From contig CM022667.1 in the NCBI GenBank assembly GCA_012295275.1, positions 19,530,001 to 19,594,000 of the forward strand: a stretch of 64,000 nt of DNA. The letters run 5' to 3'. This document shows, piece after piece, positions 32,001 through 63,048 of the stretch. Each line of letters opens with the position of its first letter. The stretch's first letter is position 1. The notes under the pieces are model-generated. The model worked only from the letters and a program-made list of their open reading frames with translations, had not been told where the DNA came from and searched no databases. This stretch comes from Chrysomallon squamiferum. Its lineage: Eukaryota > Animalia > Mollusca. A program made the translations under genes and the position numbers.

Positions 32001-33200
32001 TCTATACATTTTACTTTACAGTACACCTTTCTATACACTTTTTACTCTTACAGTACACCTTTCTATACATTTTATTTTACAGTACACCTTTCTATATACA
32101 CTTTTTACTTACAGTACACCTTTTATACATTTTACTTATTACAGTTCACCTTTCTATACACTTTTACTTACAGTACACATTTCTATACATTTTACTTACA
32201 GTTCACCTTTCTATACACATTTTACTTACAGTACACCTTTCTATACATTTTACTTACAGTACACCTTTCTATACGTTTTACTTACAGTACACCTTTCTAT
32301 ACACTTTACTTACAGTACACCTTTCTATAATGTTTTACTTACAGTACACCTTTCTATACATTTTACTTACAGTTCACCTTTCTATACACTTTACTTACAG
32401 TTCACCTTTCTATACTCTTTTTTAACAGTAAACCTTTCTATACATTTTACTTACAGTTCACCTTTCTTTACATTTTACTAACAGTAAACCTTTCTATACT
32501 TTTTACAAACTGTAAACCTTTCTATACATTTTACTATCAGTTCACCTTTCTATACCTTTTACAAACAGTAAACCTTTCTAAACTTTTTACAAACAGTAAA
32601 CCTTTCTATACATTTCACTTACAGTTCACTTTTCTATACACTTTACAAACTGTAAATCTTTCTATACTTTTTATAAACAGTTCACCTTTCTATACTTTTT
32701 ACTTACAGTACATCTTTCTATACATTTTACTTACAGTACACCTTTCTATACATTTTACTTACAGTACACCTTTCTATACATTTTAATAACAGTACACCCT
32801 TTTATACATTCTACAAACAATACAGTTTTGTATTTATTTTAGTAACAGTACACCTTTCTATACACTTTACTTACAGTACACCTTTCTATACATTTTACTT
32901 ACAGTACACCTTTCTATACATTTTAATAAAAGTACACCCTTTTATACATTCTACAAACAGTACACCCTTTTATACATTCTACAAACAATACAGTTTTGTA
33001 TTTATTTTAGTAACAGTTCACCTTTCTATACACTTTACTTACAGTACACCTTTCTATACATTTTACTTACAGTACACCTTTCTATACATTTTATTAACAG
33101 TACACCTTTTATACATTTCTACAAACAAAACACCTTTTTTTACATTTTATTTTAGTAACAGTTCACCTTTCTATGCAGTTTACTGACAGTACACTTACAA
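23019..33200. repeat. ~10 kb tandem satellite, 28-bp unit CTTACAGTACACCTTTCTATACA(C/T)TTTA, roughly 350 copies
   Basis: Directly visible periodicity; clean units at the edges, variable T-run lengths in the centre. Confidence 0.97.
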
Positions 33201-36789: not shown

Positions 36790-37249
36790 TCGATTGCAGA
36801 CGCTCAATAACACATGCGCAGACGTCACTTGTGCCGCAACTGCAAATTACCACGTGAAAATGGAAGAGGAGAAACCCCGCTGGGACATCGAAGTAGAAAT
36901 AGTCTCCTCATTGGAGGGAGAACTCTGCAGTTTTCTTCTCCCCGGGGAGCCCGGGCCATTCGCATATGTTATCTCCAAGCAAAGCTCATTGCGAGAAGCC
37001 AAAAATATCACGTATTATTTCCCAAGCGTTGGAACAATCGGCGAATTCGCTCAACCGACAGCGGGCGTGTTCAAAGGTTCGAACCCTGGGGAGTAACCCC
37101 CATGGGTGCCGTTGCTTTCGAGGCAATTCAATATTCATTTGATGGTGTAGCTAGCACACATGCTGTGCTTTGGCGTTCTGGGCTCCGAGTTTGGAGCGGT
37201 TGTCAGACGAGGGACTAGCCGAACTGGGAGGTAACTTAACGTTGTGACA
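36790..37249 (+). promoter_or_regulatory. Putative promoter/5' UTR of the ZNF423-like gene (GC- and CpG-rich island)
   Basis: About 450 bp of GC/CpG-rich sequence directly before the ATG, with CATGCGCA, GACGTCA, CACGTG and three CCCNNGGG palindromes (36939, 37083, 37097). TSS not determinable. Confidence 0.65.
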
Positions 37250-37289
37250 ATGTCACGGCGAAAACAAGCGCGACCGAAATCGTGTAAAT
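37250..37289 (+). CDS. ZNF423: Coding exon 1: [13 protein letters not shown] (NuRD-interaction motif)
   Basis: ATG TCA CGG CGA AAA CAA GCG CGA CCG AAA TCG TGT AAA T followed by a consensus donor gtaagt; matches the MSRRKQxxP motif of FOG/SALL/BCL11/ZNF423. Confidence 0.92.
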
Positions 37290-37759
37290 GTAAGTATAGT
37301 TATATATACGCTCCATTCTGTTATTATCACTACCGTTTATCCATTTCTTTCGGTCTTGTGCATTCAAAACAATTACTTGCTTTGATCAATTAGATTACTG
37401 TTGCTTTGGTTACAACCAAGTGACGCAAAATCGACCGACTCTGACGTTTGAAATCTGTGCTTCGGTGTGTTTTGATTTATTATGACGTTTTAACAAACAT
37501 TCAGCCCATGGTGAATACATGTATATTATTTTTCAGAAATTAAAACTGTTACTAAAGCCACACAAACATATCAGATCTGACGACTTACAGTAGTTGATTT
37601 TATACCGGTACTTCATAATTATCTACAGCGACAGAATTATATCATACATGTAATATTTAACTTTCAGTAGTCGGAGATATTTGCTATTATTTTTATTTAT
37701 TTGTTTGTTTTATAACCATCATCATCGTTATTGCCGTCATATTTATCATCATAATCATT

Positions 37760-37834
<75 letters not shown>

Positions 37835-38786
37835 TCCTTTTAATTAAGGAGTGAAATATAATTTCACATAAAAGGACAAAATAATTATAATAATAATAAT
37901 AAACATTTAGCTAAAAGGGGTGTGTTGAGTCACTTTTTAATTCATGCGTTTCTTTCATTAGTAGCTTTTCTACTCATTTACAAATAAAACTGAAGATGGA
38001 AATGTAATATTGCACAAAGGAATAAGATGTTGGCTTTAGAATGACATTTATTATTTGTTACATTCTCTATACTGCTGCAGTATAAAAAGTGAGGTGATGA
38101 GGGAAAACAAAATATACTGAATATTTACATTAAAGAAATATACTATTAAAGTAATTTACTGAATATTTATATAAAAAAAAACATACAGAATATTTACATT
38201 AAAGAAACATACTGAATATTTACATTAAAGAACTGTACTGAATATCTACATTAAAGAAACATACTGAATATTTACATTAAAGAAACATACTGAATATTTG
38301 CATTAAAGAAACAAACTGAATATTTACACTAAAGAAACACACTGAATATTTACACTAAAGAAACATACTGAATATTTACATTAACAAAACATACTGAATA
38401 TTTACATTAAAGAAACATACAGAATATTTACATTTAAAAAAAAAAACATACTTGTATTTACATTAAAGAAGTCTACTGAATATGAATATTACCTGAACTT
38501 CTTATCATCTGACATCATTTCACTGATGTCACAGTTACTGCTTGCTGTTTGAGTCAGTGAGTAACGACTCAGCTATTGTCCCGGTAACCACTGACCCCTC
38601 CTGACTTGTTTAAGGAGCTCTTTCCTGCTGTTTTATTCATCACTTGATGTTCTTAAGGAGAAGTGCTCAAAGGGAGTTCACACAAACAACTCCAGCTTTA
38701 CAGACTGTGTGACTCCCCCAGGGGTGGAGATACATGTTTGACTGTGGGCTGTATATATATGTGTGTAAAATGAATTAAAATGAATG

Positions 38787-38820
<34 letters not shown>

Positions 38821-38853
38821 GTAATAGTAATAATAATAGTAATAGTAATAGTA

Positions 38854-38933
<80 letters not shown>

Positions 38934-39961
38934 GATGACGATGATTATGATGATAAATATGATGATATATATATTTGTGTGTGTGTGTGTGTGTGTTTTA
39001 TAATTAAAATGAAATATGTGTTCTAAAATTTCTCTTCTTACTATAAAACAAATGAATTACGTTTGACCATTCTCATAATGCCATTATATGAAACAACAAA
39101 CATTATTATTGATGTAATATACATTAATTTTCTTATAATGAGTAATAAGAGATTTATGACCTTACATTATATAGATAGATAGATAGATATAGATATAGTG
39201 CCACACTGTAAGAAAATCAGTAAATTTAACATAAAATGTCATTTAAATGTATTTGAGTATTATATGTCATATTTGCCTATTAGCATATCATTATTTAGTA
39301 TTAAAATTAGTAGATCATAATTCATTACTAAGAGGTAGATTATCATTTTCTTCTAATGTTAAATGTAGTCAAATTTTGACTAGTAATAAGAATATTATAA
39401 TATCACATATATCAAGACAATCAGTTTTTATATCATAATTAATTGTGTAGATTTTAATCTAATATTAGAATTAGAAGATTATATTTCGAAAAAATTAAAA
39501 CCTTTTATGAAATATTTTCTCATATATATGTATATATATATATATAAGAGAAATAGAAAAAAGGTTTTAGTTGAGATTAGTATTTGATTGATTTTTTTTT
39601 TCCACTGTTGCCTGCATCCCTCAGTTTTCTGGATCAGTCCTTCTCTGTGGTCAGTTTGAAGTATCACATGTGATAATGATTCTGTTCTGCCTGTATGAAG
39701 GTGAATGTAAAATACTTCCGCTTTGAGAGAAATTCCCATGGTGAGACTCTTCTCTTTGTTTTCATGTTTTTTTTAAAAATATTATTCAAAGTTTATTGTA
39801 GTGATTGTTTTATTTTATTTTTGTTTCAGTGAGTGTGTCAGATGAAGGTGAAGGTCAAACAGATGTCGTAAATGATGATGATCAGTCTGTGGAAGAGGAG
39901 AAGAAGTTACCAGAAAAAGGTTGTTTGTTTGTTTGTTTGTTTGTTTGTTTGTTTGTTTGTT

Positions 39962-39992
<31 letters not shown>

Positions 39993-42410
39993 TGTCTTTT
40001 GTTTGTTTGTTTATTTGTTGTGTTTTTTTTTGTTTTTTTTCCTAATTATTTATTTGTTATTTGTGTGTATTTTATATATATATTTTTTAATTTATTCATT
40101 TATTTATTTTAAAAAGTTATTTTTATTTTTTTTTTTTTTTTCTCTTTTCCTTTTTGTTTGTTTATTTTATTTTTTTACTAATTTATTCATATTCTCACAT
40201 TATAATGTACTACATTATGAAATTGGAAGAGAAGAATAAAATAAATACTGATGACCAACTTAGGTCTCCAAAATATCCAAAACACACCACTACACTTAAA
40301 ACAGACTCAGAATAACACAGGTACTGTATCTACACTAACACTGTGTCTTTTCTGTCACAGAAACATCGGAACAGCCAGCACCATCATATAGTGATGACAT
40401 TGATGACGATGGCACTGTTCTGTCTGATGAAGATCCAGCAGAGATTGGATCAGAAGCGTTCCACTGCGAGACCTGTAACACTATCTTCAGTAGTCTGGGG
40501 CAGTTTATGGACCACTGCAACTTTGACTGTTGTGGGGGTGAGTGGCTAAACAAAATCTACATCTTGTTTTAATTTCTGTGTGTTTATTTCCAGTTTACTG
40601 CTTTTTGTTAAAGTGTACCAGCCATAGTGATAACTTACAGCATGCTGTATCAACCACAAAATATCTGTCTTCTTGTTTGTGTACAGACACATACACAGAC
40701 AGATAGATAGACAGAGAGACAGACAGACTGATGTTGTATACAAACATATATGTATACAAATATATATGCATACAAACATATATGTATCTATCTACATATC
40801 TGTCTGTCTATCTACATGCAGATCCAGACACATTCACCCACCAACCACACACCCCCACACACACATAGATATTGCAAACAATACACTGTCAATAAAATCT
40901 AGTAATAAAATACCGTTTTTGAAATTTAATTATCATTTAGTTAAACAAGAATAACAAGAAGGAATTTCACTTTGTATCATTGTAATCACTTCATTGTTGA
41001 ATGTTGTTCTGTTTCATGCAAGTCATGAATATTAAAATAGAAACAGCATCGCTGTTGTTTAGAAAATTAAAATGGCAGCATAAAGAAATAGATTGTTTTG
41101 TGAAATCCCCGGTCTGTATAGGAAAAACATTCTTCATTTCAGTATAATTAATTGTAGCTCTCCAGGGGTTACTCTCACTTCCACTTGAGAGTTATCACCA
41201 GTGATCTGTCTGCTGTAGTAGATAAAAACAGGAAATTCCCATTCTAACTGCTCCTGGTTACACTCACTTATAATTTTTTTGAACTGGATATAACCATGAG
41301 TTTCCAAATCCAGCTAAAAATAATTACTCTTACCTCAATTTCCCATTCTAACTGCTGTTGCAATATGAATTAATTTCTGGTGTAATTAGATCAAAGTAAA
41401 TATGACCCTGAAAAGGTCAGAAAGGATATGATGTGAATACAGGATCTTTCATATACTAAATGTAAATGAATGTATCTTTGTAAACACAGCTATTTAGTGT
41501 ATTCAATAAAATAACTCAAATTAAAATTAATCTTATTAGAAATTTCTTTTGGGAAGATTTTATTATATTTATATGACATAGGAGCTGTATATTTAGCTGC
41601 CTCATTTGAGACAATCCTGTATGTGTGTTTGTTTGTTTGTGTGTGTGTGGGTGTGTGTGTATGAATATTTGTGTGTTTGTGTATGTGTGAATGTTTTTTA
41701 TTGTAATAGCTGGTGGTAAAACATTTTCAGGTTTGAGCAAAAGATGATTAAAGATAACAGAATATGTTGAATTTGTGCAGATATAAATATTTAACCAGTT
41801 TGTAAGTGACGACAAAACTAAGGATTTTAATAGGATCATATTTACTTCTTTTATATTAACTTCCCAAAACCTGTATTATCTTACATTCTTACCTGCCACA
41901 CTTTGTTTTAGTCTGTTAAAATTTAATAAGCTCATTTTCTTGTTTCTAGCTAGAATTTTATTATTATCAAAAGCAGTAATAGTAGTAGTAGTAGTAGTAC
42001 TGATGTATTATAAATTATTAATATTGTAACCTATATCCAAAATATCCAAATGAATTGTAGCAGCAATAGTATTGTTATTGTTGTTATTATTAGTATAGTA
42101 ATGGTAGTACTAATGATATTGTTTTATTATTATTATAATTGTTGTTATTATTGTTGTTGTTGTTGTTAATATTATTAGTAATAGTAGTAGTCATAGTAGT
42201 AGCAATGATATTGTTTTATTATTATAATTGTTATTATTATTGTTGTTGTAGTTGTTGTTGTTATTAACATTATTATTATTATTATTATTAGTAGTAGTAG
42301 TAGTAGTAGGAATAGTAATAGTAGTAGTAATGATATTAGTTTATTATTATTATTATAATTGTTATTATTATCATTATTATTGTTGTTTTTGTTGTTGTTG
42401 CTGTTATTAA

Positions 42411-42447
<37 letters not shown>

Positions 42448-42811
42448 ATGAATATGATTATTACTACTACTGCTACTATTCTACAAACAAAGAATGCAAG
42501 CCTGATGTTGTGTGTTTCCCAGGGGACAGGTAGGAAGGTATCTAATTATTTAGAGTCAGACTGCCCAGGGATTCCTCTAACAATAAAGCACATCTCAGTT
42601 TCCCAGCACCAGGCTCTGGCTGCCATGGTAGCGTGCTGCCCCCTGGGGATAGCAAATGGAAATACTGTTTGACTGTCTGCTAGTCTCTGGAACGCTGGCT
42701 CCCTGGGGAGTGGGAGGCATGTAACATCCTCTATTGATTTTAATCTCATTCAGCTTAGTTGTTTAAATGCAGAATAAAAAATAGGTATAGCTTTTTGTGT
42801 GTGTGTGTGTG

Positions 42812-42893
<82 letters not shown>

Positions 42894-43078
42894 GTGTGTG
42901 TGTGTGTGTGGGTGTGTGCAAACATATATGGGTGTATTTGTGTGTTTTGTGTGTGTGGGTGGGTGCAAGTATACAATGGGTATATATATATGAGGGCATG
43001 TGTATTTGTGTGTGTGTGTTTGTACTAATATATATGGGTGTATATATGAGGGTGTGTGTGTGCATGTGCACACGTATT

Positions 43079-43122
<44 letters not shown>

Positions 43123-43232
43123 CTGCTATCACTGTATCTAGTGGCAAGATAAGATGACTAGGTAAACTGCTATATTTTTGGGGCACTGACCAAAAAGATC
43201 TGTTTAGTTTGATAAATTAATTGTTTTTTACC

Positions 43233-43269
<37 letters not shown>

Positions 43270-46200
43270 TGTTCAGATTTACTAATTTGTTGGTTTAGAT
43301 CTTAAAAAACCATTCTGAAAATGGTTTTCATTTAAAAAAAAAAAAGTAATAAATTTTTCTTATTTAAGAACAATTATTTTTGATGTATTGCAACAACAAA
43401 CTCAGTATGCATGAATCTTCTGCTGTTGAGAAATAAAAGTTAATTGTATTTAATTTTTGTATAATTTAGGATTACTCAGATCAAATGGCCATTCTTACAG
43501 TTATTTCTTCTGTATCTGTAATTTAAGTCTTTATTGGGGCACATGTAAATGTGTTTGAGAATTTGTTTGACTGTTTGTTTTCTGGATAAAGTTTCAAAAA
43601 TAGGAACATCTGTTCTATGTTTATCTTTATTTTTATCTTTTTATCTTTATAGTTAATTAATGTTTAGTATATATAAACTGTTATCCAGCTTGGTTTAATA
43701 ATAATTTTAAAAAAAAAAGAACAATTTATTTGAAGATTACAGAAATATCCTTTTTATATATATATTTTTTCTTACTTCAAATCCAATAACATCTTTCTTT
43801 TTCTTCTTGACTGATATTGTTTCATTCTTATTTATAAAAAAAAGATATTTTTTATTTTTTATTTTTATTTTTTAAACTATTAGTTTTTTGCCCAATATTT
43901 ACCTTCTTTTTTTCCACCACTATTTATCTTCTTGATTTCAAACATATTTCAACAGCTTGTGACAGAAAAAAAAAAAAAAAAAAAAAAAAATCTCATTGAT
44001 CAGAAAGGTGAAGGTTACAGATACATATCTTCAAAAGGTGTTACTTTTTAGACATTTAATGTAGATGTATCTGATTGAACTTGTCACATATATCTCTAAC
44101 TGACAAGCATAGCTAAAGATGTATTAGTAAATATATACTTCAGACTTAATGTGATAAATGTATACATAGACTTAGTGTCATAAATGTATACATAGACTTA
44201 GTGTTATAAAAGTATACATAGACTTAGTGTGATAAATGTATACATAGACTTAGTGTCATAAATGTATACATAGACTTAGTGTCATAAAAGTATACATAGA
44301 CTCAGTGTGATAAATGTAGACAGATTCAGTGTGATAAATGTATACATAGACTTAGTGTCATAAATGTATACATAGATTTAGTGTGATATATGTATACATA
44401 AGACTCAGTGTGATAAATGTATACATAGACCAAGTGTGATAAATGTATACATAGACTCAGTGTGATAAACGTATACACAGACTCAGTGTGATAAATGTAT
44501 ACATAGACCTAGTGTGATATATGTATACATAGACCAAGTGTGATAAATGTATACATAGACCAAGTGTGATATATGTATACATAGACTCAGTGTGATAAAT
44601 GTATACATAGACCTAGTGTGATAAATGTATACATAGACCTAGTGTGATAAATATATACATAGACTCAGTGTGATAAATGTATACATAGACTTAGTGTGAT
44701 AAATGTAGACATAAACTCAGTGTGACAAAAGTACACACAGACTGATAAAACAGGTAGAAAGAACAGGTGACAACCTATTGATCTGTGTAATAAACCTTTG
44801 CTAAAACAATGTATCATAAATTACCACCTGTATTACTAAACAGCTGACCGTATCAAGTATCACTTGATATGTAGGAATTTTAAAATATATTTGTTTATAT
44901 GAGTGTGTGTGTGTGTGTGTGGGTGTGTGTGTGTGTGTGTGTCTTCATCCATACATGCTTGTTTAATTTTTTTTGATTGACAGCATCAGCACACTCATGC
45001 AGATTACGCACATACATACATGCAGACACACATTCACATACCAAAAAAACAACCATACACATAATGGTATAAAAGCATAAATTGATAAAACTTTAAAGTT
45101 CTTTAAATCTTATTAAAACAAAACAAAAATTAAACATTATAAATTTTAGCCAGAAGAAGCCTCTGTATCATAATGGCTTAAAAATATTTAATTTTTTTGA
45201 CTATATATAAATATTAGACAAAATATTCACAAACTGCCTCACTCTGCATGGCTCATTCCCCACCCCCCTGCTGTGAGCATGGCGCCTGCCCTGGGGTGAA
45301 AGCCTGGGGATCAAGAGATATCAGCTTAATTGTGGGACATTAACAGAGTCAGGGGTCACGATGTGACTTGACAGTTTTTAGTTCATGTAGCATTCATGTC
45401 TAACACACACACTAACACACAGTCACTGCTATAAACACAGGCTTTCACAGTTTATTTGTGTTTAGTGTGTTGATTATAAAATATGAGTACATTCTGAAAT
45501 TTTGTATTGATTTACTGTGTTGATTATAAAAATATGAGTATATTTTGAAATTTTGTATTTAGTGTGTTGATTATAAAAATGTGAATACATTTTGAAATTT
45601 TGTATTTATTTAGTCTGTTAATTATAAAAATATGAACACATTTTGATTGTTTTGGTAGCAAGAGTATTTTAGTAAAACAAATGTCTAAATAAATAATAGT
45701 AGTATTAACTTCAAAAAGCACATAACACACTGATAAAAACATATTTTTTAAAATCTGATATTAAAATAATGTAATTAAAATATATAAAACAGCATGTAAA
45801 CGATATTAACCTTTTCTCTTTTTTAAATTTTATTACTATTATATTATTAATTTTTTTGTTTTTTTTTTTTAATTATTATTAATTTTTTTTTAAATAACCT
45901 TAAAAATAATGTTGTGTACATGGAGAGATTGTCTCACATTATAACAACAAAGATGTGGTATAACATTCTACTGGTAATATCTAAATATAATAATCATACA
46001 TGTATGACCTCAGTGAGTTGTTTCATTGACGTAACTAACAGTGGATAATTGAAAACATGTTTGTGTAACTAACCAGTGTTAATGGCAGTTATAAATTACT
46101 CACAAGTGAAGAGCTGTTCACTGCATTACATTGAGAGAAACAGATTACAGAAAATACTTTTTCTTACAAGATAACTGTTTCTGTTATCAGTTGATTAAAT

Positions 46201-46667
46201 GAATGTGAGTGTGTGTGATACCAGTATACAAATAACATTAATATATATGCATACACTTTTAAAAAACATATACATACCGATATATATTCATACAAACATA
46301 CTTATATACATACATATATAGATACATTATACACATATACACATATACATACATACATACATACATACATACATACATACATACATACATACATACATAC
46401 ATGTTGCATGCATACAGAAATGCAAACATAGATACCTACAAATATTTTTTATTCTCTGTTTTTAAGCATTTTTAATACATTTTTAAAGATAAACTAAATT
46501 TTTAACAACTGAAAACAAATTCTTAACTACATTGCTAACACTACAAAAATTCTAGAACTGAACATTTTTAAGACAAGAAATAAAATAATCTAAGAAAAAA
46601 TATATTGCAAAGAAAATTTTAAAAAAATACCAGTTCCCCCATTAAATTTAAAATCATTAGAAATGCG

Positions 46668-46721
<54 letters not shown>

Positions 46722-47848
46722 TTATCAGAAATGTCTGTAGATTTGTGAGCCTTTCTCATCAAGGAATCATGTTTTTATCAACTGATCATATATCTGCCAC
46801 CACAGGGAGTTGGAAAGCTTCGCACAACTGCAATGATCTCATCCCAGTGAAAATGGAATTCATGCAGTTTGCATACAACTCCGGAAATAATTTAACAGCT
46901 TGGCTCAGCTATCCTTTAGGAAAGTAGCGGTAATTCTCAGAAGGAATAAAACCCAACACTGAATAGAATATGAAAATAGGTTACGTTATTCTGATAGATT
47001 AGACTGAGGAGTTGGCCATACTTCGGGGGAACCCCTGCTGGGAGATGTTCTGTGATTGGCTGATCCCAGCGGGGAGTCCTCTTGCAGAAGAATGATTACA
47101 AAGACAGTGCCTGCACCCCAGGGGAGATCACTCATTTCAGTCACAGCAGGTGGGAAAAAAGAGAGTGTCCATGGTAATAATTGGTATTGGTTACTGAACA
47201 AGCATACTGCTGATGCATCCTGCCAGTATTAAACTGCATTAGGAATTTTTTTTAATTTTTTTTTTTTTTTTTTTTTTTTTTTTGTCTAACTTTAATTATA
47301 TGTTTCAGTAGAAAACACATAATCTGTATCATGATTAAGTATAATGTTGTCACGAACTGGTCCGAGTATGTTGTACATCATTCTGTCTGTCTGTGTGTGT
47401 GTGTTCCGTAAAATTGATTCTGCTGACAGTTTATTTTTCTTTGTTACTTTATTTTCTGTGTTTTCTGTGAGAATGGATATTTATCATTTTAATGTCTTCC
47501 AGTAAAATATCTAACTGAAACTTTATGAATGTCTGTCAACTTTACCATCAATCTCAAATATATATATATGTATAGATCAAAACTGGTTCTATAAATTTGA
47601 GATTTTTCATTCTTTATTATATTGTTATTACCTCAGAGGTTAGAGTGCAGATAGTAAAACATTATATTTTATTAAAGGCCATGGTAAGTGCTGTTCTGTC
47701 TGTGTATGACTGATAGCATTATTTTTATAATGGATTGGTGTGTTGTTCAGCATTTATTTGTTAATTCTTTTTTCTTTTCTTTTATTCTTCTTCTTTTTTC
47801 TATTTATTATTTATGTATATAACAGTTATCATCATCATCACTACTGTT

Positions 47849-47879
<31 letters not shown>

Positions 47880-48449
47880 CTGCTGTTGACATTCTTGTTG
47901 ATGTTGCCATTGTCAGTATTATTTATTGTTACTGTTATTATTACTGTTATTATTGTTGTTGCTGTTCTTCATATTGTGACAAACCCACATTTGCTAATGC
48001 TCAAGCACATACACCCACATACAACACAACAGATGATATATTTCTGACTGGTTTGTATTACCTGTGCTGTATTGAACCAATCACTGATAAAATGAACTAG
48101 AAAGAGTGAGATTCCTGCTTACCAAGTCCCCAGAGAGACTTTAGTTTCATCATGTAGCGTGCTGTTCTTTAGTTACCAGCTCAGGGTAGGTTACTCTAAT
48201 TAACTACTCAGTAAAACGTGCTCCAGTCACACCAGCCAATCAGTGTGGTCGTCTCTGATGGCAGACGTGAGCCTGCTTCACAGATGTCGTTACTGCAGCC
48301 CCATGGGACATGTAGTGGTAACCATGACAGGGCATCTTAGATAAGTAAAGTCTGATGAATATTAATGAGCAGTTTTGCAGAATTTCTTTCCTTCGTGTAG
48401 AGATTTTATTGACCTTATCCAGATACTGACTCACAAAACACATGTGCAT

Positions 48450-48482
<33 letters not shown>

Positions 48483-50637
48483 ATATATATATTAATCAAC
48501 ATATTCACTGACATCCAGTGATTAATTTACTTATTCACTAACATCCAGTGAGTAATCTACTTATTCACTAACATCCAGTGAGTAATCCACTTATTCATTG
48601 ACATCCAGTGAGTAATCTAATTATTCACTAACATCCAGGGATCAATCCACTTATTCATTGACATCCAGTTTTTAATCCACTTATTTACTGATGAATCTAC
48701 TTATTCAGTAACATCCAGTGAGTAATCTACTTATTCACTAACATCCAGTGAGTAATCTACTTTTTCAGTAACATCCAGACCTCAATCCACTTATTCACCA
48801 ACATCCAGGGATTAATCCACTTATTCACTAACATCCACTGAGTAGACTACTTATTCACTAACATCCAGGGATAATCCACTTCCTCGCTAACATCTTGTGA
48901 TTATTCTACTTATTCATAAACATCCAGTGATTAATTTACTTCTTCACTAACATCCAGTGATTAATTTACTTCTTCGCTAACATCCATGGATAATCCACTT
49001 CCTTGCTAATATCCATGGATAATCCACTTCCTCGCTAACATCCATGGATAATCCACTTCCTCGCTAATATCCATGGATAATCCACTTCCTCGCTAACATC
49101 CATGGATAATCCACTTCCTCGCTAATATCCATGGATAATCCACTTCCTCGCTAACATCCATGGATAATCCACTTCCTCGCTAACATCCAGGGATAATCCA
49201 TTTCCTCGCTAACATCCAGTGATTAATTTACTTCTTCACTAACATCCAGATATCAATCCCCACTTATTCACTAACAAAATTTTCATGGTCAGCTAACATA
49301 TAGTGATTTACCTTTATCATTCTATTTACCTATTTACTGGTATGGCTAGATATTAATGACAGGTACAGATATTATATGTTGTAAGAATGGAACACAACAG
49401 ACCTTGGAAAAAATACAGTCACGTTGTAAGACAAACCTAAACACATTTTGTTCATTATTATTGTTTACTCTTTGTTTTGTGACTTGCTTTTTTTTAAATT
49501 TCTTTAATTTATTTAATATGATTTGTTTTCTTTTTTTTTTCGTCCACAGATGGTCGCTGTATTCAGTGGAACGTTGAAGAAGGCAACAGCGTTGCTCGGT
49601 CTAAAACACCTTCATCATTATCACCTACAAATGTCAGCAACAGCGTCACTGCTGGTAACAGCAACATGACACCATCTGCTGTAACCACTGTCCCACCTGA
49701 TCAGCTGCCATTTTCAGTGAGTCTGTCTCAGTCAAATCCTTATGCTTGTCATTTCTGTGAGAAAAGCTTTCCTCGGCTCGGCTTTCTGAGAATACATGAA
49801 CAGGTATTATTAACCAGTTTAAATACTCGACATGCCACTGTATTTACTGTTTTACTTATTCAAAACTGATGTTTTCATCACTTTAATCTCTGTACAGGTT
49901 CTTTGATTATTTTACTGGAGGATTTTTGTTGTTGTTGTTTTATTTATTTTTTATTTGGCATACTTTATTTTGCTGTGCAAATGAAATATGAAGAATATTC
50001 TAGCATTTGCTTTATGATTTTCAAAAACATTTTAGTTTTATCTAGTAACATATAAAAAAACAAAACATTCTGGACAGCAGTGAATTTAATAAACATTGTA
50101 TTCACCAAGACTTCGTCTGTAATTTCTCAAAAATTCAGATACTGCACCAATTTAGTTGGATTGATTTTTAATAGGCCTCATGAAACAATGTTAATAAAGC
50201 TTTATTAAACATTTGCTCACCTTCTGGTCACAGTCAGTTGTCAAGGGTATAGAAATTTAATAGTGACCGACATGGAGTTTTGCATGAATAACGAGGTGAA
50301 ATCAAATATTGTTGTATATTTGCATGTGTGAATTGTCCCCAGGTGCATGCAGATCTCATGCCATTCAAATGTGTCCACTGTCAGAGAGTGTTCCGACACA
50401 AGCGAAGTCTTGACCGACACGTGAAGCTTCACACTGGAATCAGAAAATACAAGTGTACACAGTGCCAGTCTACATTCGCCAGGTAACTCTTTAGTTTTTG
50501 TATGTTGTGTCTTTTACCTGTTTTAGCTTGTTATGCATTCATCATGTTTTATTTAACAGTATATATATATATATATATATGGATGTATGTAATACATACA
50601 CACACATATAGATATGTGTGTGTGTTTAGGTGTGGGT

Positions 50638-50691
<54 letters not shown>

Positions 50692-50940
50692 TATATGTGT
50701 GTGTATATATATATATATATGTATGTATGTATGTATATATAAATACTATGTGTTATGCATATGAATATATGTTGTGTGTATATGTGTGTGTGTGTTTCTA
50801 TAAATATATATATATATATATATGTCTAATCTATAAATGTATGTAAGTATGTATGTATGTATGTATATATGTATGTATCTATGTATGTATATGTGGGCAC
50901 GTGTTTGTGTGTGTGTATGTATAATATATATATGTGTGTG

Positions 50941-50993
<53 letters not shown>

Positions 50994-53900
50994 GTGTTTG
51001 TTTATGTATATATCTGTCTCGCTGTGTGTGTGTGTGTGTGTGTGTGCACATATATATATATCTTGTGATATACATCTTTAATGGTTTGGTTAGTTTTTAT
51101 AACAATCTTCATTCTACCCTGTTTAAATATTTGTTATGAAATTCACAGACATGGAAATGATTGTTAATCTTAACTTTTCACAGATGTTGAAATATTTGCT
51201 ATTTTTTAAATTTACAGATATTGAACTGTTTATAGTTCGTTAAACTTCACAAAATTAATGTTGAAATGTTTTCCACTATCCGTCAACTCTCCAGTTTCAG
51301 TAATTTCACAAAAACATTTTATAAGAAGACAAACACACAGGCATTCTAAAATGTTTCTCCAGCATGTTTCTGTTTGTGTTAACAAACTGCAAATTGTTAT
51401 ACAATAGAAAAGAAGAAGAAAAAAAATCACCTGATACTCTTGAGAAAGGAGAAATTCAATAAATTAAATTTCGGCTTGCAAACTTTATCATTGAGAACGA
51501 TGATTACCTCCTCCAGGGAGTTTAACATGAATAATTTCTGTAGCAGTTTGTAAAAAAAAAAACAGAGAAGAAAAACAATTAGTTTTGTGTATTACAATTT
51601 ACTTTATCTACCGAAATGCTAACTGCTTATGTACTAAAGAGATGCATTCACTTCAGCAACGTAATTCTTTGTTCGACACTGCGAACAGGTTTTCAATGAC
51701 GAGCAGAAAAGCTTTGATTTCTCTGCTAAACTTCTTTATTTGTTTTTGAAAACTATTTTTTCAATGACAGCTTTGGCTTCGCACAGACGCAAACTAAAGG
51801 TAGGTGGTGAGGGAATAGAACATGACTGTGTACATCATGATTTATGAACACTGAGCGGAGAAAAACTTCATGAAATATTCCATCTGCGGAGAACTAAGTA
51901 CATTTTATTTCTCCCTCGTGCTTTGAGCAAAATCTCAAAACTGATGACGCCAAGTTTATGCATGTGAAAATTATGAATAATTGATTAGTTTGAAATGGCA
52001 AAATAGGACTGAGACCTGCTGACTGTACAGTACAAAAGGGGTGGAAGTGGGCATTAAACAAAACAGCAGTAAGAAAAAAAAAAGAATTTTGTTGTCGTTA
52101 TGAAATATGGACAAAAAGGTAACACGATAATAAATGATTGTTCAATTCACAGAATGAACGGTGAATAAACAAAAGGTTGTTTTGAATATGTTGTGTAGTA
52201 AAAGTAAAAACAGCGTAAGTTAGCATGAGGTATTTAAATGCTTGTGTAGAGTAGAAAGCTAATTTAAGTGTGAGAAAAAAACTGTGTGTGAGAGATGAGC
52301 ATGGAGTGTTGATTCCCTCTGCAGGATTACAGAGAATGTACAGGTTACGGTAAAATACATAGCAAAACTTACTTACAAAATAGCTTTAGAAATATTTTAA
52401 TTACATACAACTCACATTGGTAATTGTTTTATCAGTTGATCATAGAACTTATAATTATAACAGTAACTGGGTTTTTTTTTGAGTTTGTCATAGAACTCAT
52501 TTTGAAGATTTGTGATTTATTTTGACTGTACTTATACTTTATTTTTAGTGTACTTTCAGTTTTCTTTTGCATTACTTTTATTTTATTTTTAATTTATTTT
52601 TCATCACAATAAGTTGGGTTTTTTTCATTTTATTATTTTTTAAATTGCAATTAGGTTTATACATCTGTGTATGTGTTTGAATATTTGTATATATATATAT
52701 ATAATCAACCTTTCACTTTATTATAAATTGATTTTTTACATTTGACAGGTTATGTTTAGTTTTATTTTCCACTTGCTACACAATCTATCTGACATTGCTA
52801 AAATCTAAAACTCGTTATGGCATCATATTTAATGAAAAACATTTTTTAAAAATACCTTGTTGCCATGTTTATTAGTGCTCTGTGTAAAATAAAAGTAAAA
52901 TATCTTCGGCACAAAAATATATGTTTGATAACAGTGTTGATAGTGCTATGTTTTTGTGACAGAATAGATATAATTGCTTGGGGTATTGTACTCCATTGAT
53001 TTCCCCAGTGACCAGCCACACATGCAATGCACCTCCCACTTGAAAGAAATCACTGCCAATAGTCCACTCCCTGGAGACGAGTTTTCATCATCCGAAACAT
53101 TAACCTTTTATGAAGAAATTCGCCTATGGCTTGCTATTGACATTATGATGTCTTTTTTGCTGCTCTTGCTGATGAAAAGGGATGCCGGCGCCTGGAGATT
53201 TGTAGTGTTTTCTAAAAGATAATTTCAACTCATATTGTCTGTCTTTTATTTCCATTGAACTTGTAGTTAATATTGAGGTCAAATCGGTAACCGCCTACTC
53301 TCTGTTAGTTTTTATTGTTGTTTTTTGTTTTTGTTTTTTGTGGGGTTTTTTGACTGTTGAAATTTTGTTGTTACTTTGTTTCTTTATTGTTGAAATGAAT
53401 TATTACAGTCTCTGTTCTTTAACAACAGAAATCTTTTCGTTTCAGTTATTTTGTTTTTAAGTGTTGACATCTCATTTGCTTCAGTTGTTTTTTGTTTTTT
53501 AACTTTTGAAATATGTTGTCTTTGGTTACTTTGTTTTTGACTGTTGAAATCTCATTCATTTCAGTTACTTTGTTTTCAACTGTTGAAATCTCATTCACTT
53601 CAGTTACTTTGATTTTGACTGTTGAAATATCATTCACTTCAGTTTCTTTGTTTTTAACTGTTGAAATCTCATTTACTTCAGTTACTTTGTTTTTAACTGT
53701 TGAAATCTCATTCACTTCAGTTACTTTGTTTTTAACTGTTGAAATCTCATTCACTTCAGTTACTTTGTTTTTAACTGTTGAAATCTCATTTACTTCAGTT
53801 ACTTTGATTTTAACTGTTGAAATCTCATTCACTTCATCCTCTTTGAAATCTCATTCACTTCAGTTACTTTGTTTTTGACTGTTGAAATCTCATTCACTTC

Positions 53901-56900
53901 AGTTACTTTGTTTTTAACTGTTGAAATCTCATTCACTTCAGTTACTTTGTTTTTGACTGTTGAAATCTTGTCTTTTGTTGTTCTCTTTCTACAGTTATTG
54001 AATGTCTAGGCACTGTGATTGAGATAGGGAATTGAAATCACATGACAAAGAAACATCAGTGTTATTTTGTGGGCAGATAATGGAACTATTATCATTTTTT
54101 ATGATTCATTTCTCTTTTATTTTTATCCTCTGGCTTTTGAAAAACAACAACAATAACTATTATTACCTATTATGTATGTACATACAGATATACATATTTA
54201 TGGTAGAATGAACATGTTCTGACAGTGTGTGTTAATACGTATGACTGTATTTGTTGAAAATGTTTGATTATAGGAAGGTTCTGAAAAATCTTTGTTAAGC
54301 CAACAAAAAGTATTAATTCATAAATAATTCTGTATTAATATACTGTTTGAAATACTTTGAAAATGGTTTATTATTGATATTGTTTTGTCTTTTGTGTATG
54401 GGGTGGCTGGGTGTTTTTGTTTGTTAGTTAGGTGATCTATGTGAAAAAAAGAACTTTCATTTGTTACAAAAATATATTTGAAAATATATATATATTATCT
54501 TCTTTTATTTATATATTTGTCTTTAAAGCTCGCAATGATAAAGTCACAAAGGATAGTATGGAGAGCTTGTTAGAATGGGAAATAGACTGACATATATGTG
54601 ACATTTCTGACAAAAAAACTGAAAAAAAATATACTATAATAGGACTTTCAAACATCACATTATTTAAGTTATATGTTTGCACACACACACACACACACAC
54701 ATTTATATATATATATATGACAAATTCTGCATCTAATTCATACTGATAAAACAACAACACCTGTAACACCATTCTAGTAATGCTGATCCATGGACTGTAC
54801 AGCACAGCACATACCATAGCCTTTGTTTTATACTACTAGTATAACCACAGCTTTCATTATTGTTCAGACTTGTTGTTGTACTTATTTTATTATTATTATT
54901 CATGGCAGTACTTTTATTTTTTTTTTCTCCAGAAGTGATCATTTGAAGAGTCACCTGAGAACTCATGACAGTGCCAAGCCATTCCAGTGTCCAATCTGTA
55001 ACCATGGTTACCTGACAACATCGTCTCTTGCATCTCACATGCTGTCTCACAAAGAGACTGGTAAGGAGTACGAGTGTATGCAGTGTCAGCAGTCGTTTGG
55101 CAGCACCCAGGAACTGCAGGACCACATCGTCATCCACAGTGTCAAGGTGAAGCTGGAGAACATTCAGTGTGCTCACTGTGCAGAGAGCTTTCTGGGTCAG
55201 GATGCTCTGGACTCTCATATGAAGGATGCTAACACGAAGGATGCTCACCACAGCAGTATTCAGCTGAAGTGTCCTATATGCTATGACAGTTTCACCGAGA
55301 CTGAGTCGCTGTGTCAGCACATGGAAAGTCACCTAAGCCGGGATGACAGCGTGGTTGTCACAGCAGACAGGCCGGAGAGCGCTGTTGTTGCAAGTCCTAT
55401 TGGAGACACATCCTCCATTCTGACTGGTAACACGTCATCAGGTGAGTTGTTAGTGTGTCCGTACTGCATGGGTGATGACTACAGCAGCATCGAAATGCTG
55501 GAGATACACATGCAGAGTGTGCATGGAGTAAAACCCACAGAGATTTACACCTGCAACTACTGCAATGCTCCCTACCCGAATCTGTACAGTCTTCATGACC
55601 ACATGAACGTTGTGCATAGAAACCAGCCATGCATGGACATCAAGTACCCGTGTAGTATGTGTACAAAACAGTTCCCTAGCATTGAGTTGCTCATCGAACA
55701 CAAGAAAGCATCTCACACATTTCCAGATGGTGGAGCACCAATCATAGATTCAGTCTACTGTATGCAGTGTACCCTGGCCTTTCCAAACCCTTCATCTCTA
55801 GAGGAACACATGATTCTGGTACACTCCACCCCACTGGAAGAAAAAATCAAAATTGGCAAGACCAAAGGGAAAAGGTCATGGTCAAAAGGTCAGAAGGAGT
55901 CGCGACCTGTTACTCCATCAAAGCACTCAAACTTAGGTTCTCTGATGCTGAGTCCAGAGCCTGTAGTGGACAGTGTTACATGTGACCAGTGCAATGCCAC
56001 TTTTCATGACCTCAACAACTTCCAGGCTCACATCAAGCTGCACCTGGAGTCAACACTGACAAAGTACAGCTGCAAGCAGTGCAGTCAGCAGTTCACTTCT
56101 GAGGAACAACTTGAAACCCACTCCTCTATTCACTATCTCTCCATGACAACAGAGTATGGCTGTACCAGCTGTGTGAAACTGTTTTCTAAACCAGATGAGT
56201 TGCAGAAACACCTGATGGACATACATGCACATCACCTGTACCGCTGTTCTCTCTGCAAAGAAATCTTTGACTCCAAGGTGAACATACAGGTGCATTTTGC
56301 TATCAAACACAGCAATGAATGTAAATTGTTCAAGTGTACTCAGTGTGACAACATCTTCAGGTCAGAGACTGAATGGCAGGTTCACATAAGAGTAAACCAT
56401 CTTCACATTGCCAAACCATACCGTTGTCTCTTCTGTCAGAGCAGCTTCTGCAGTGAGATGGATCTGCAGTGTCACCTGACCACTCACAGTAAACCATTTC
56501 AATGTCCAATGTGCAGTGAGACATTCCACATTGAGTTTCTGCTCGATCAGCACATGCAGAGTGTTCATGCTGACAAAGCAGATCACACAGTGGGAGAATC
56601 CAGCAAAAACAAGAGTTTCTGTCCATCACCTGTTGTTAAAGTTAAAAGTGAGAAGGATGTTGACGGTATTCCCTCTCCAACCAGTAAATCTCTGAATTCT
56701 TTCAGCCCTCTGAGGTCACCACCACTTACATCAGCATCAGCTGTGACATCAGTGTGGAAAAGTGGTGAACCTCTTCACATCTGCAACATCTGTGATCACA
56801 AGTTCACCAGCCAGAATGCCTTGCAGACTCACAAGAGTCAGGACCATGGCTTGAAGATACAGAAGTCTCCGGATCCAGTCTCTATAGTAGATGATTACTG

Positions 56901-59316
56901 TTCTGCTTCCAGCAGTCTGCAGATGAGAAATTCAGCTCTGCTTTCAGTGTTAACATCTGACCGACATGAGTCTTGTATCTACTGCAGTCACACATTCAAG
57001 AATAAGACTGAGTATGAAAAACATATGCGCATCCATTTGAGCTCAGAGAATCTGAAGTGCAAGATCTGTGACAAAGAGTTCCCATCTGGAAGTATTCTAG
57101 CAGAACACAAACTGGAGCACTGTAAGATACAGCAAGGCAACTGCTGTGTTGTCTGCAAGCTGGCTCTGAAGAGTGAGGATCACTTCTACATCCACTCTCA
57201 GGACCACGGCTACCAGGGGTCTCTGCTGCAGTGTATCATCTGCAGGCAGACGCTCGCCTCACTGGTGGAACTGCAGATGCATGGCAAACACCACTTCCAG
57301 TCAAAACCCACCTTCTACACCTGCTGTGTCTGTCTCAAGAGCTTTGACTCGAAAGAAAATCTTGTCTCAAAACTCAACACCAGTGGCAGGACTTACTATG
57401 TCTGTAAGCCTTGTTACCATGGTGAAACATCCATTTTGAAATGTGAAAAGTGTTCTCTGTCCTTTGCCACTGAGGAAGGTCTGGAGATTCACCAACTCGA
57501 GCACAAGAAACAGACATTCCAGTGTATCAAGTGTCAGCAGTTCTTTTCCACAGAGTATGAGATTCAGGTGCATGTAGCCACTCACATGATGCAGGAGGGA
57601 AACCATCACGAGTGTACTCTGTGTTCACAGAACTTTGACACACCTTCAAAACTGCAGTGTCATCTCATAGAACACACCTACAAACATTCTGAAATGCGCT
57701 GTAGTATCTGCTGCAATGTGTTCCATTCAGCCAGCGAGATCCAGGCTCATGCCCTGGAACATGGAATCCAGGCTAGGAAGTACGCTTGTTCTCACTGCAG
57801 TCAGAAGTTTTTCTTTAGTGCAGAACTGGAGAATCACTTGTCATCACATAAAGTGTCAGGAGACACAGTGCAGAGCAGGTACGAGAACGCAGCGAGAAAC
57901 GGAAAACCAGACGTTTCCAAGACAACAAAACACTCCAGTACAAGACTGGAATGCTGTGAGTGTCGTCAGACATTTCTCAGCTCACCTGACCTGCAGCAGC
58001 ATCTTAAAGTGCACGAGTCAGGGGAGACAATCAAGTGTTCTATATGTGTGTCAGAGTTCAAGGACATTTTAACAATGCAGCAGCACTTTTTCAGTGTCCA
58101 TTCGAGTCTGGATTTAGAAAATACAAAAAGAACTTTCAAGTGCAGTGTCTGTGAGAAAGATTTCCCCTGTCTGAGTAATCTGCAAGGTCACATGAGAATA
58201 CACAAATCAGGTAAATCATTGTCTACTTGAACTGTTTTTTTTTTTTTTTATTATGATAATTCAAAAGACAGGTAAATCTTTGTTTAATCTACCTGTTACA
58301 TAAATTTCTGTTCTTATTAAATTATACTTCAGAAGTCTTTGTTTTATCTGATTTATGACTTGCTAATGAAGTTTTGTTGACTTGTCTTTTATCTGCACTG
58401 TTTTACATTTGTTAAAATGATAGCAAGGGGAGATAATGCCTATTTCATTAATTTTATTTTATCAGAAATTGATTGCTAACCATTCTTTCACACCTGGTGT
58501 TCTATGAGTCACTGTTCAATAAAACCAGTGATACAAAACTATAAAATAATAAAAGATTATAAAAATTGTATTTATCAATGTATACAACATATTATTTAAT
58601 TATTTGTATGCATCATTTATGTGCTTAAACATCCTGCAGAGGATGACAGTGAAAATCTGTGACTGGAATTCAGCTGATTACAGATTTACAATTAGCAATA
58701 AGGTTTCTTTTATATTCACTTTCCAGTCAACAGTTTAGGATTCAAAACAAGGGTATGATCCCAGCATTTACAAACTGTTGAACATGTAAGCGATTAAGAC
58801 AGTGTTACTGTTAAGACTGGAAGATAAAAGTGATTTTTGAATATTTCAGGAGAAAAGTTTGCATGTCCTGTGTGTCAGAAGATGTTTTCTGTGTCTCGTA
58901 ACCTGACACTGCACCTGAGATCTCACAGTGGAGAAAAACCATACGAATGTCCGGTCTGCAACAAGAGATTTTCACGTACGTTCTTGTTAGTGACAGAAAC
59001 ACAGAAAATACGAGAAACCACATCAGATATTTTAAAAACTAATATTTAGTATATTCAAAAACAAACACTTAATATATGTTTTTAAATATTTAATATGTTT
59101 TATATGTTTATAGGTTTTGTATATTTGTACATAGATTGTATGTAGTAATGTGTTTCTCACTAGTCTAATGCTCACATAGTTAAGATCAAATATGAAGCTA
59201 TTTACTATAAAGAACGTGTCTTTATCTGTTTATGTGACTGTACAGATGTGTGTGAGAATATGTATTATGTAATGTGGATGTGTATTTGTTTGTGTGTGTG
59301 TGTGTGTGAGTGTGTG

Positions 59317-59355
<39 letters not shown>

Positions 59356-60368: not shown

Positions 60369-60898
60369 TAAATACTTCATTGTTAATTTAATATTTAAAC
60401 ACGTCACAATTAATTTAATATTTAAACTGTGAAGTGACTGTTGACTGATAAACATTTCATTGTTAATTTGATATTTAAAAATCTCCAAATAGGAATACAT
60501 TAATAAACATGTCATTGTTAGATTAAAAATGTATTTATGAAACAGCAGTAAACATCTGTAAAAAATAATTTAATATGTTGTGATAATTTCATCTGTTGTG
60601 ATATTAGATTATATATATGTATGGGTGTGTATGGATATGTGTGTGTGCATTGATATGTGTAATTAAAGTATTTAAAAATAATTATATTAATAATAATTTG
60701 TCAAAATTAAATATAAGATTACAGTGTATATAGACACAGAAAAGATTAACTGGTTTCAGACATATTTAAACAATACAACATTGAATATAAACATCGATTA
60801 CTAAAATTAACATTAAAAACTAAAACCAAATGTTCAGTCTGATATGATGTTTATACATGTACTTTTCTTTTTCAATTTTTTTTCAGTTCACATGTTTT

Positions 60899-60904
60899 AA
60901 TAAA
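60899..60904 (+). terminator. Candidate polyadenylation signal (first of several AATAAA at 60.9-61.25 kb)
   Basis: AATAAA about 530 nt after the stop codon; low specificity in AT-rich DNA. Confidence 0.3.
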
Positions 60905-61858: not shown

Positions 61859-61899
<41 letters not shown>

Positions 61900-62259
61900 G
61901 GACATTTAAAGACTTTCCAAAACCACATTTTGCTAATTCATGTTAACAGTTAAATCATTCTAACTAATTCTATGGCACATAAACATTATATACGCTGTAA
62001 CTACGTGTAGATAGATATTCATGTACCGAGTATTTTTTTATAAACAGATTCAATCTTGATTATTTATATAATTATAATATTTGCATATTTAGTGTCTATT
62101 ATATAATTTATTCAAAGATTTATATTTTGTTGTTTAAATCGCTTTTTGTATAAGTTGTCAATATTGTGAAAATCAAAATGAGAGACACTATGTTGAAATA
62201 AAACGTATGTAATATTTGTTTATGTTTTTCTTGTGCTGATTTTCATTACTTATTATTTA

Positions 62260-62297
<38 letters not shown>

Positions 62298-62996: not shown

Positions 62997-63048
<52 letters not shown>

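What the first reader, a model, noticed from the sequence alone, without database searches (positions are those of the whole stretch)
36939..53077. Locus-wide array of EBF/COE palindromes in the gene for EBF's own cofactor: candidate ancient COE-ZNF423 feedback circuit
Seen: ten perfect-core CCCNNGGG palindromes between 36.9 and 48.3 kb (36939 TCCCCGGGGA, 37083 ACCCTGGGGA, 37097 CCCCATGGGT, 38715 CCCCCAGGGG, 42517 TCCCAGGGGA, 42640 CCCCTGGGGA, 42700 TCCCTGGGGA, 45288 GCCCTGGGGT, 47116 CCCCAGGGGA, 48299 CCCCATGGGA). One-mismatch cores occur at 35737, 41159, 42562, 45301, 48127, 51510, 53002 and 53068. They sit in small GC-rich islands inside very AT-rich introns. I noticed no perfect core in the first 35 kb. 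Rough hand estimate with ~15% C and ~15% G is about 1e-5 per position, so well under one chance hit is expected in that span. Known: TCCCNNGGGA is the EBF/COE/Collier site, and vertebrate ZNF423/521 binds EBF through its last fingers and is itself EBF-regulated. Inference: COE drives this gene through several homotypic enhancers and the product feeds back on COE, so the circuit may predate vertebrates.
Basis: partly seen in the sequence, partly recalled or inferred. Interest (0 to 1): 0.85.

Follow-up and report, generated by a model that had tools for sequence, protein, structure and literature searches.

The report
COE-type sites across mollusc ZNF423 gene
A mollusc's ZNF423 gene carries ten non-random CCCNNGGG palindromes near its start and in its introns; they are likely binding sites for the COE/EBF transcription factor, which would extend to molluscs a regulatory link already shown in fly and mouse.

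Summary
All ten CCCNNGGG loci lie in the 5' region and introns 1 and 3 of the ZNF423/521 orthologue of a likely gastropod; none occurs elsewhere in the 64 kb. Local shuffles give at most 6, and the motif ranks first of 832 spaced palindromes. The islands are not copies of each other, and the six tested are single-copy. In a diverged relative, the three 5' cores sit unchanged in a 406-bp conserved block and the 47116 site lies in another; the remaining intron evidence is incomplete or negative. COE binding is the best reading, but the idea is not new. Drosophila Oaz, the orthologue, carries six Collier ChIP peaks, including the strongest of 559, and a Collier-dependent enhancer. Mouse Zfp423 and Zfp521 have intronic EBF1 enhancers. 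This locus is therefore a sequence-level spiralian member of a known link. One addition: five Zic-type motifs lie within 83 bp of cores (post hoc), so Zic is a likely co-input and a rival binder for some palindromes. COE occupancy, the sign of regulation and protein feedback are untested here. Other invertebrate loci gave no clean support.

The parts
36939..36948 (.). COE-type palindrome TCCCCGGGGA, 311 bp upstream of the ATG; also shares 13 letters with a published Zic1 site
   Evidence: unchanged in organism B; Zic site table
37083..37092 (.). COE-type palindrome ACCCTGGGGA; organism B has T at the first position, giving the full TCCCNNGGGA consensus
37098..37107 (.). Core CCCATGGG followed by a GGGTGC (ZNF423-type) half-site; core kept and half-site changed (37107 T>C) in organism B
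38715..38725 (.). Core in intron 1 (CCCCCAGGGG); lacks the COE A flank; conservation and copy number not tested
42517..42709 (.). Densest cluster, in intron 3: TCCCAGGGGA (42517, same 10-mer as the fly Oaz_Col site), one-mismatch site 42562, CCCCTGGGGA (42640), TCCCTGGGGA (42700); conservation and copy number not tested
45288..45310 (.). Core GCCCTGGGGT plus one-mismatch site 45301, in intron 3; single-copy in the same species; no alignment found in organism B
47116..47125 (.). Core CCCCAGGGGA in intron 3, inside a conserved block; preceded by GCACCC, changed in B at 47115; shares 11 letters with a fly Collier site in eya
48127..48308 (.). One-mismatch site 48127 and core CCCCATGGGA at 48299, flanking but outside a conserved block
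51510..53077 (.). One-mismatch sites 51510, 53002 and 53068 in intron 5 (other one-mismatch sites: 35737 upstream, 41159 in intron 3)
36794..37199 (.). Conserved non-coding block (promoter or 5' UTR; start site unknown) shared with organism B: 33 substitutions and 3 gaps in 406 bp
46774..47160 (.). Conserved non-coding block in intron 3 shared with organism B: 57 substitutions and 8 gaps in 387 bp
48143..48243 (.). Conserved non-coding block in intron 3 shared with organism B: 9 substitutions and 2 gaps in 101 bp
36876..47150 (.). Five Zic-type motifs CCYGCTGDG at 36876, 45267, 47034, 47065 (minus) and 47142 (minus), each within 83 bp of a core
   Evidence: Zic consensus
37250..60368 (+). ZNF423/521 orthologue, nine predicted coding exons (37250-37289, 39830-39919, 40361-40537, 49550-49803, 50343-50482, 54933-58210, 58850-58975, 59424-59551, 60132-60368); 1489 aa, starts MSRRKQ, 33 finger-pattern matches
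   Evidence: all eight introns GT-AG, open frame
57613..57849 (+). Three fingers aligned to the last three (EBF-binding) fingers of vertebrate ZNF521, at 17/21, 8/22 and 11/22 identity; six more fingers follow
   Evidence: binding role of ZF28-30

Best explanation
The ten palindromes are non-random sites in the 5' region and introns of the mollusc's ZNF423/521 gene, and most of them are likely binding sites for COE (Collier/EBF) dimers in several small enhancers. COE would thereby control ZNF423 transcription, as shown in fly and mouse, likely together with a Zic factor at the neighbouring CCYGCTG sites. The ZNF423 protein would then bind COE through its retained EBF-type fingers and damp its activity, closing a negative feedback loop. 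Shown here: enrichment, position, fit to fly Collier sites, partial conservation and retained fingers. Inferred: occupancy, sign of regulation, Zic co-input and protein feedback.
For: Enrichment survives local and look-elsewhere nulls. 7 of 10 loci match CCCnnGGGA, the motif in 542 of 559 Collier peaks. The top 20 hits of the fly-site matrix are all in 35.5-54.9 kb, about 30% of the window. The 42517 site has the same 10-mer as the mutationally verified Oaz_Col site. Fly Oaz has 6 Collier peaks over 17 kb (one 5', five intragenic), ranked 1st and 6th among others; this locus has a similar layout over 16-17 kb. Mouse Zfp423 intron 5 has an Ebf1-dependent enhancer with a conserved CCCnnGGG core. 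Zfp521 intron 2 has a cluster of Ebf1 peaks. In organism B the three 5' cores carry 0 of the 27 listed substitutions and one flank moves to the consensus. Islands at the 6 tested cores have single-copy depth. Island pairs are no more alike than control windows once cores are scrambled (mean 24.9 against 24.0). COE is present in gastropods.
Against: No occupancy data exist here. Flanks alone do not single out COE: T precedes 11 of 20 half-sites against 123 of 268 other C-runs, p 0.29. 3 of 10 loci lack the A flank. Zero changes in 24 core bases is not significant against the block's 7.8% rate (p 0.13). Of the 3 intron-3 cores tested in B, one is inside a conserved block, one is 56 bp outside one and one has no alignment. 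For the one inside, 30 difference rows were not shown, so its integrity is unresolved. Four cores were not tested for conservation or copy number. Of 12 non-coding segments from 10 other invertebrate loci, 1 was enriched, and that in a repeat-looking block; the near-complete locus L008 has 1 core in 22.9 kb. Published Zic sites resemble 36939 and 38715. No genome-wide intron background was available.
Confidence: 0.7

Rival explanations
1. The islands are mainly Zic (odd-paired) enhancers, and many of the C-run/G-run palindromes are Zic sites rather than COE sites.
For: Five CCYGCTGDG motifs lie within 83 bp of cores (0.36 expected, 0 of 200 shuffles, 0 in the upstream 23 kb). They match published Zic2/3 sites, CCTGCTG and CC(C/T)GCTGGG. 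The tabulated Zic1 site of Math1 shares 13 letters with the 36939 site, and other tabulated Zic sites resemble 38715. The 36876 motif has no listed change in organism B.
Against: The pattern was chosen after seeing the islands. 7 of 10 cores fit CCCnnGGGA, and the 37083 change in B moves toward the COE consensus. The densest cluster (42517-42709) has no Zic-type motif. The fly orthologue is the top Collier target.
Confidence: 0.12
2. The sites are autoregulatory sites for ZNF423 itself, whose inverted GCACCC repeat also contains CCCNNGGG.
For: Zfp423 occupies overlapping ROAZ/EBF sites in mouse introns 3 and 5. GCACCC half-sites flank 2 of 20 half-sites against 2 of 268 other runs (p 0.025, post hoc). 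The N-terminal DNA-binding fingers are conserved (13/21, 14/21, 13/21 and 11/21 against Xenopus ZNF521).
Against: No site has both halves; the best has 2 mismatches to GCACCCNNGGGTGC. A single half-site binds weakly. Both half-sites are altered in organism B (37107, 47115). A fly Collier site carries the same GCACCC flank. This reading can coexist with COE binding at shared sites.
Confidence: 0.1
3. The pattern is compositional or repeat-derived: GC-rich islands, CpG decay or a dispersed repeat produce C-run/G-run pairs with no function.
For: The gene body is CpG-depleted (o/e 0.31 against 1.09 upstream), which favours CA/TG centres. Weak local similarity exists between the intron 1 island and the 42.6 kb island (score 35-37, control 99th percentile 33, control maximum 42). 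L051 suggests that a repeat-like block can make such a cluster. Four cores were not tested for copy number.
Against: 4-mer-preserving shuffles in 100-bp blocks reach at most 6. The upstream DNA has as many GC-rich windows (28% against 21% at GC 0.42 or more) and no core. Depth is single-copy at 6 of 6 tested cores, and conserved blocks exist in a relative. There is no second copy of any island in the window.
Confidence: 0.04

Closest known systems
Drosophila Collier/Knot binding at Oaz (PMC4512700)
   Same: Orthologous gene pair; several CCCnnGGGA-type sites spread from the 5' side through the gene over about 17 kb; the Oaz_Col 10-mer equals the 42517 site.
   Different: The fly link is shown by ChIP-seq and a mutated reporter; here there is only sequence. 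Fly OAZ ends at the EBF-type cluster, while this protein has six more fingers. No test of shared enhancer sequence with the fly was possible.
Mouse Zfp423 intron 3 and 5 EBF/ZFP423 sites (PMC3675209)
   Same: Conserved CCCnnGGG cores in introns of the orthologue; Ebf1 activates the intron 5 enhancer and ZNF423 overexpression represses it.
   Different: Three predicted overlapping ROAZ/EBF sites there, against ten cores with no full ROAZ repeat here. Intron numbers are not shown to be homologous.
Mouse Zfp521 intron 2 Ebf1 peak cluster (PMC3507953)
   Same: A homotypic EBF cluster in an early intron of the paralogue, within a feedback loop with Ebf1.
   Different: Ebf1 represses Zfp521, so the sign of regulation in the mollusc cannot be assumed.
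Zic1/2/3 binding sites (tabulated in PMC11201823; bioRxiv 10.1101/2025.06.20.660819)
   Same: CC(C/T)GCTGGG and CCTGCTG occur beside the cores; one tabulated Zic1 site is nearly identical to the 36939 palindrome.
   Different: I did not search for Zic input at ZNF423-family genes; the enrichment test is post hoc.

Membership tests
ZNF423/521/Oaz gene family | Best protein matches are ZNF423-like over the full length | tested here: met
   62% identity to Haliotis ZNF423-like over 100% of the query exon
ZNF423/521/Oaz gene family | MSRRKQ N-terminus and ordered finger homology, including the EBF-type cluster and C4-like segment | tested here: met
   features as described
COE-bound ZNF423-family enhancers | Sites match the in vivo COE consensus CCCnnGGGA | tested here: met
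   7 of 10 loci; consensus
COE-bound ZNF423-family enhancers | Several sites concentrated in the gene's non-coding DNA above chance | tested here: met
COE-bound ZNF423-family enhancers | Sites conserved in related species above their flanks | tested here: inconclusive
   3 cores unchanged but p 0.13; 1 of 3 intron cores inside a conserved block, integrity unresolved; 4 not tested
COE-bound ZNF423-family enhancers | COE occupancy and site-dependent enhancer activity | not testable with these tools
   the run search listed no ChIP or ATAC library among its 11 rows
COE-ZNF423 feedback loop | ZNF423 protein binds COE and inhibits it | not tested
ZNF423 autoregulatory (ROAZ) sites | Inverted GCACCC repeat with both halves | tested here: not met
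   best site has 2 mismatches; only two single half-sites, both altered in organism B
Dispersed repeat family | Raised copy number or mutual similarity of the islands | tested here: not met
   single-copy depth at 6 of 6 tested cores; no island copies in the window; 4 cores untested for depth

The most novel reading that the evidence does not exclude
Multi-site COE control of ZNF423 is a regulatory link inherited from the last common bilaterian ancestor and kept in all three superclades. In this mollusc it is wired as composite COE+Zic enhancer modules, so the COE-Zic-ZNF423 trio linked to vertebrate neural midline development would be an ancestral unit, with ZNF423 feeding back on COE.
Probability: 0.3. 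Interest if true: 0.62.

Novelty: new member of a known kind. Interest (0 to 1): 0.4.

Why it matters
Single transcription-factor-to-target links conserved across phyla are rarely documented. With fly (ChIP and mutant reporter) and both mouse paralogues already shown, a spiralian locus with the same many-site layout would make inheritance from the bilaterian ancestor the simplest reading. It also gives exact coordinates for reporter and CUT&Tag tests in a mollusc. It would not overturn anything: the link and its invertebrate occurrence are in print. The possible Zic co-input is the newest part.

Tried and rejected
Own genome: none is held, so there is no genome-wide intron background. Cross-phylum test: 56 metagenome loci were scanned and 8 of 56 have at least one core; most are short and lack the 5' introns. 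Twelve segments from 10 of the 56 loci were shuffle-tested. L002 (annelid-like): 5 cores against 3.5 expected (82 of 300); core plus flank 5 against 1.8 (10 of 300), but a reversed control scored equally (9 against 4.3, 10 of 300), so it was rejected as support. L051 (termite-like): 4 against 0.75 (1 of 300), but one core is coding and three sit in 85 bp of a GC-rich block that from recall resembles a termite dispersed repeat. That resemblance was not confirmed (no second copy among the 56 loci; 0 hits in viral contigs), so it was not counted either way. L008: 1 core, at 10327, outside the two tested segments. There is no non-coding sequence similarity between the window and any of the 56 loci, apart from exons and simple repeats. 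RNA runs X8 and X9 did not cover 36.2-37.5 kb, so the start site and the promoter versus 5' UTR question stay open; lack of cover proves nothing. The lack of alignment of organism B at 45288 is likewise not proof of loss. Rfam gave 0 matches in 35-55 kb. X-box-like, E-box, TALE and Fox-like motifs were counted and showed nothing convincing; CCATGG is enriched (8 against 1.1), partly through the cores. Pfam found no family for two upstream and downstream frames. Earlier findings of the scan: none. No complex prediction was run, for lack of a COE sequence. Searches for a mollusc or spiralian report of this link listed none; I saw only listings and abstract starts for most, and subscription journals are not covered.
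Full report
Observation. There is no perfect core in 1-35500 or 54931-64000. The excess is robust. Shuffles preserving 2-, 3- or 4-mers in blocks down to 100 bp never exceed 6 (0 of 200 reach 10 in each of 15 settings). Among 832 spaced palindromes in the repeat-masked gene, CCC-N2-GGG ranks first (p 1.6e-7), beyond the best pattern in any of 120 shuffles. The reversed GGGNNCCC is at background. The empty first 35 kb includes a 10.2-kb satellite without GGG, but the unique upstream 23 kb has similar numbers of CCC and GGG and of GC-rich windows, and has no core.

The gene. The large exon matches ZNF423-like proteins of molluscs best (62% to Haliotis), so the host is likely a gastropod. A nine-exon model with GT-AG introns gives 1489 aa starting MSRRKQ, with the ATG at 37250. 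Three cores are 311-152 bp upstream of the ATG, one is in intron 1 and six are in intron 3; weaker sites extend to intron 5. The last three fingers of Xenopus ZNF521 align to internal fingers here (17/21, 8/22, 11/22), followed by six more. This invertebrate extension is already described (bioRxiv 10.1101/2020.03.09.984518, parts 1-2 of 4 read).

Repeat or conserved element. The islands have no second copy in the window and are no more alike than control windows once cores are scrambled. Contigs of the same organism show single-copy depth at the six cores covered; 38715, 42517, 42640 and 42700 lay outside both laid stretches. A second organism (runs X10 and X11) shares next to none of the sampled words of the big coding exon, yet aligns at 36794-37199, 37388-37433, 46774-47160 and 48143-48243. 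In the first block all 27 inner substitutions are listed. None hits the three cores (p 0.13 against the block's rate), one turns 37083 into the full COE consensus, and one alters the GGGTGC flank at 37107. In intron 3, the 47116 core is inside a block, though 30 difference rows were withheld and its integrity is unresolved; 48299 is 56 bp outside a block; 45288 has no alignment. Conservation is therefore consistent with function but not decisive.

Which factor. The in vivo Collier motif is CCCnnGGGA (PMC4512700, passages and supplements), and TCCCNNGGGA is the UNC-3 site (PMC5498135, passages). Seven of ten loci fit it. A rough matrix from the 14 sites of that paper's S2 Table (read whole) puts its top 20 window hits all inside this gene's non-coding DNA. 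Flank letters alone do not discriminate. ZNF423 binds inverted GCACCC repeats that share the core (PMC4695665, passages), but no site here has both halves and both single halves differ in the relative. Zic is the stronger rival and a likely partner. Five CCYGCTGDG motifs lie within 83 bp of cores (0.36 expected; 0 of 200; none in the upstream 23 kb; one more in the big exon). They match published Zic sites, and a tabulated Zic1 site is nearly identical to the 36939 palindrome (passages of bioRxiv 10.1101/2025.06.20.660819 and PMC11201823). I chose this pattern from recall after seeing the islands, so the test is post hoc.

What is known. In Drosophila embryos Oaz has six Collier peaks (one 5', five intragenic, over 17 kb), including the strongest of 559. 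A reporter from one peak is lost when its site is mutated, and that site's 10-mer equals the window's 42517 site (part 1 of 5 of the peak file read). In mouse, Zfp423 introns 3 and 5 carry conserved overlapping ZFP423/EBF sites, and the intron 5 enhancer needs Ebf1 and is repressed by excess ZNF423 (PMC3675209, parts 1-4 of 5 read). Zfp521 intron 2 has an Ebf1 peak cluster through which Ebf1 represses it (PMC3507953, passages). COE is expressed in gastropod development (PMC2990012, passages). Five searches aimed at an invertebrate or mollusc report listed none for spiralians; most hits were seen only as listings. Supplements of the bioRxiv papers were not seen.

Against generality. Other invertebrate loci gave no clean support: 8 of 56 had a core, and 1 of 12 tested segments was enriched, in a repeat-looking block. 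The annelid-like L002 was not significant and the near-complete L008 has one core. Most of these loci lack the 5' introns, so the test is weak rather than negative.

Mechanism and verdict. Most likely (0.7), COE dimers bind several small enhancers and the 5' region, probably with Zic input, to set ZNF423 transcription, and the ZNF423 protein binds COE and tempers it. Enrichment, placement, motif fit, partial conservation and retained fingers are shown; occupancy, sign, Zic role and feedback are inferred. It works like the fly and mouse COE-ZNF423 link; membership awaits occupancy data. It is a new member of a known kind; interest 0.4.

Noticed in passing
window 36876, 45267, 47034, 47065, 47142: Five Zic-type motifs (CCYGCTGDG), all within 83 bp of a COE-type core; 0.36 expected, none in the upstream 23 kb (post hoc).
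   Followed up: partly
window 23019-33194: A 10.2-kb degenerate satellite with a 28-30-bp unit, about 338 copies, with no GGG.
   Followed up: no
window 5050-5700 (+): A frame with stops that reads like a decayed Tc1/mariner transposase (family recognised from recall, not by a profile hit).
   Followed up: no
window 37700-62300: The gene body is CpG-depleted (o/e 0.25-0.43) while the upstream DNA and promoter are not (1.09-1.20), the signature of gene-body methylation on a developmental regulator.
   Followed up: no
window 47670-47714: A short stretch matching a very high-copy repeat in organism B (depth about 7000) but low-copy in the window's organism; likely a decayed repeat remnant.
   Followed up: no
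window 38715-38750 and 42639-42681: Two cores are followed by a similar 21-bp tail containing TGTTTGACTGT; either a shared co-motif or an old local duplication; the score is within the control range.
   Followed up: partly
window 42619-42632: An X-box-like palindrome (2 mismatches to a recalled RFX consensus) between the 42562 and 42640 sites.
   Followed up: no
window 37199-37388: In organism B the stretch holding coding exon 1 is replaced by 252 unaligned letters against 188 here, while the non-coding block just upstream is 92% identical.
   Followed up: no
L051:8540-8845: A GC-rich intronic block with three CCCNNGGG cores that from recall resembles a termite dispersed repeat; a caution that repeats can mimic such clusters.
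   Followed up: partly
L002:4007-4062: Two COE-like sites 42 bp apart in a GC-rich island of the intron before the large exon of an annelid-like orthologue; not significant over the whole intron.
   Followed up: partly
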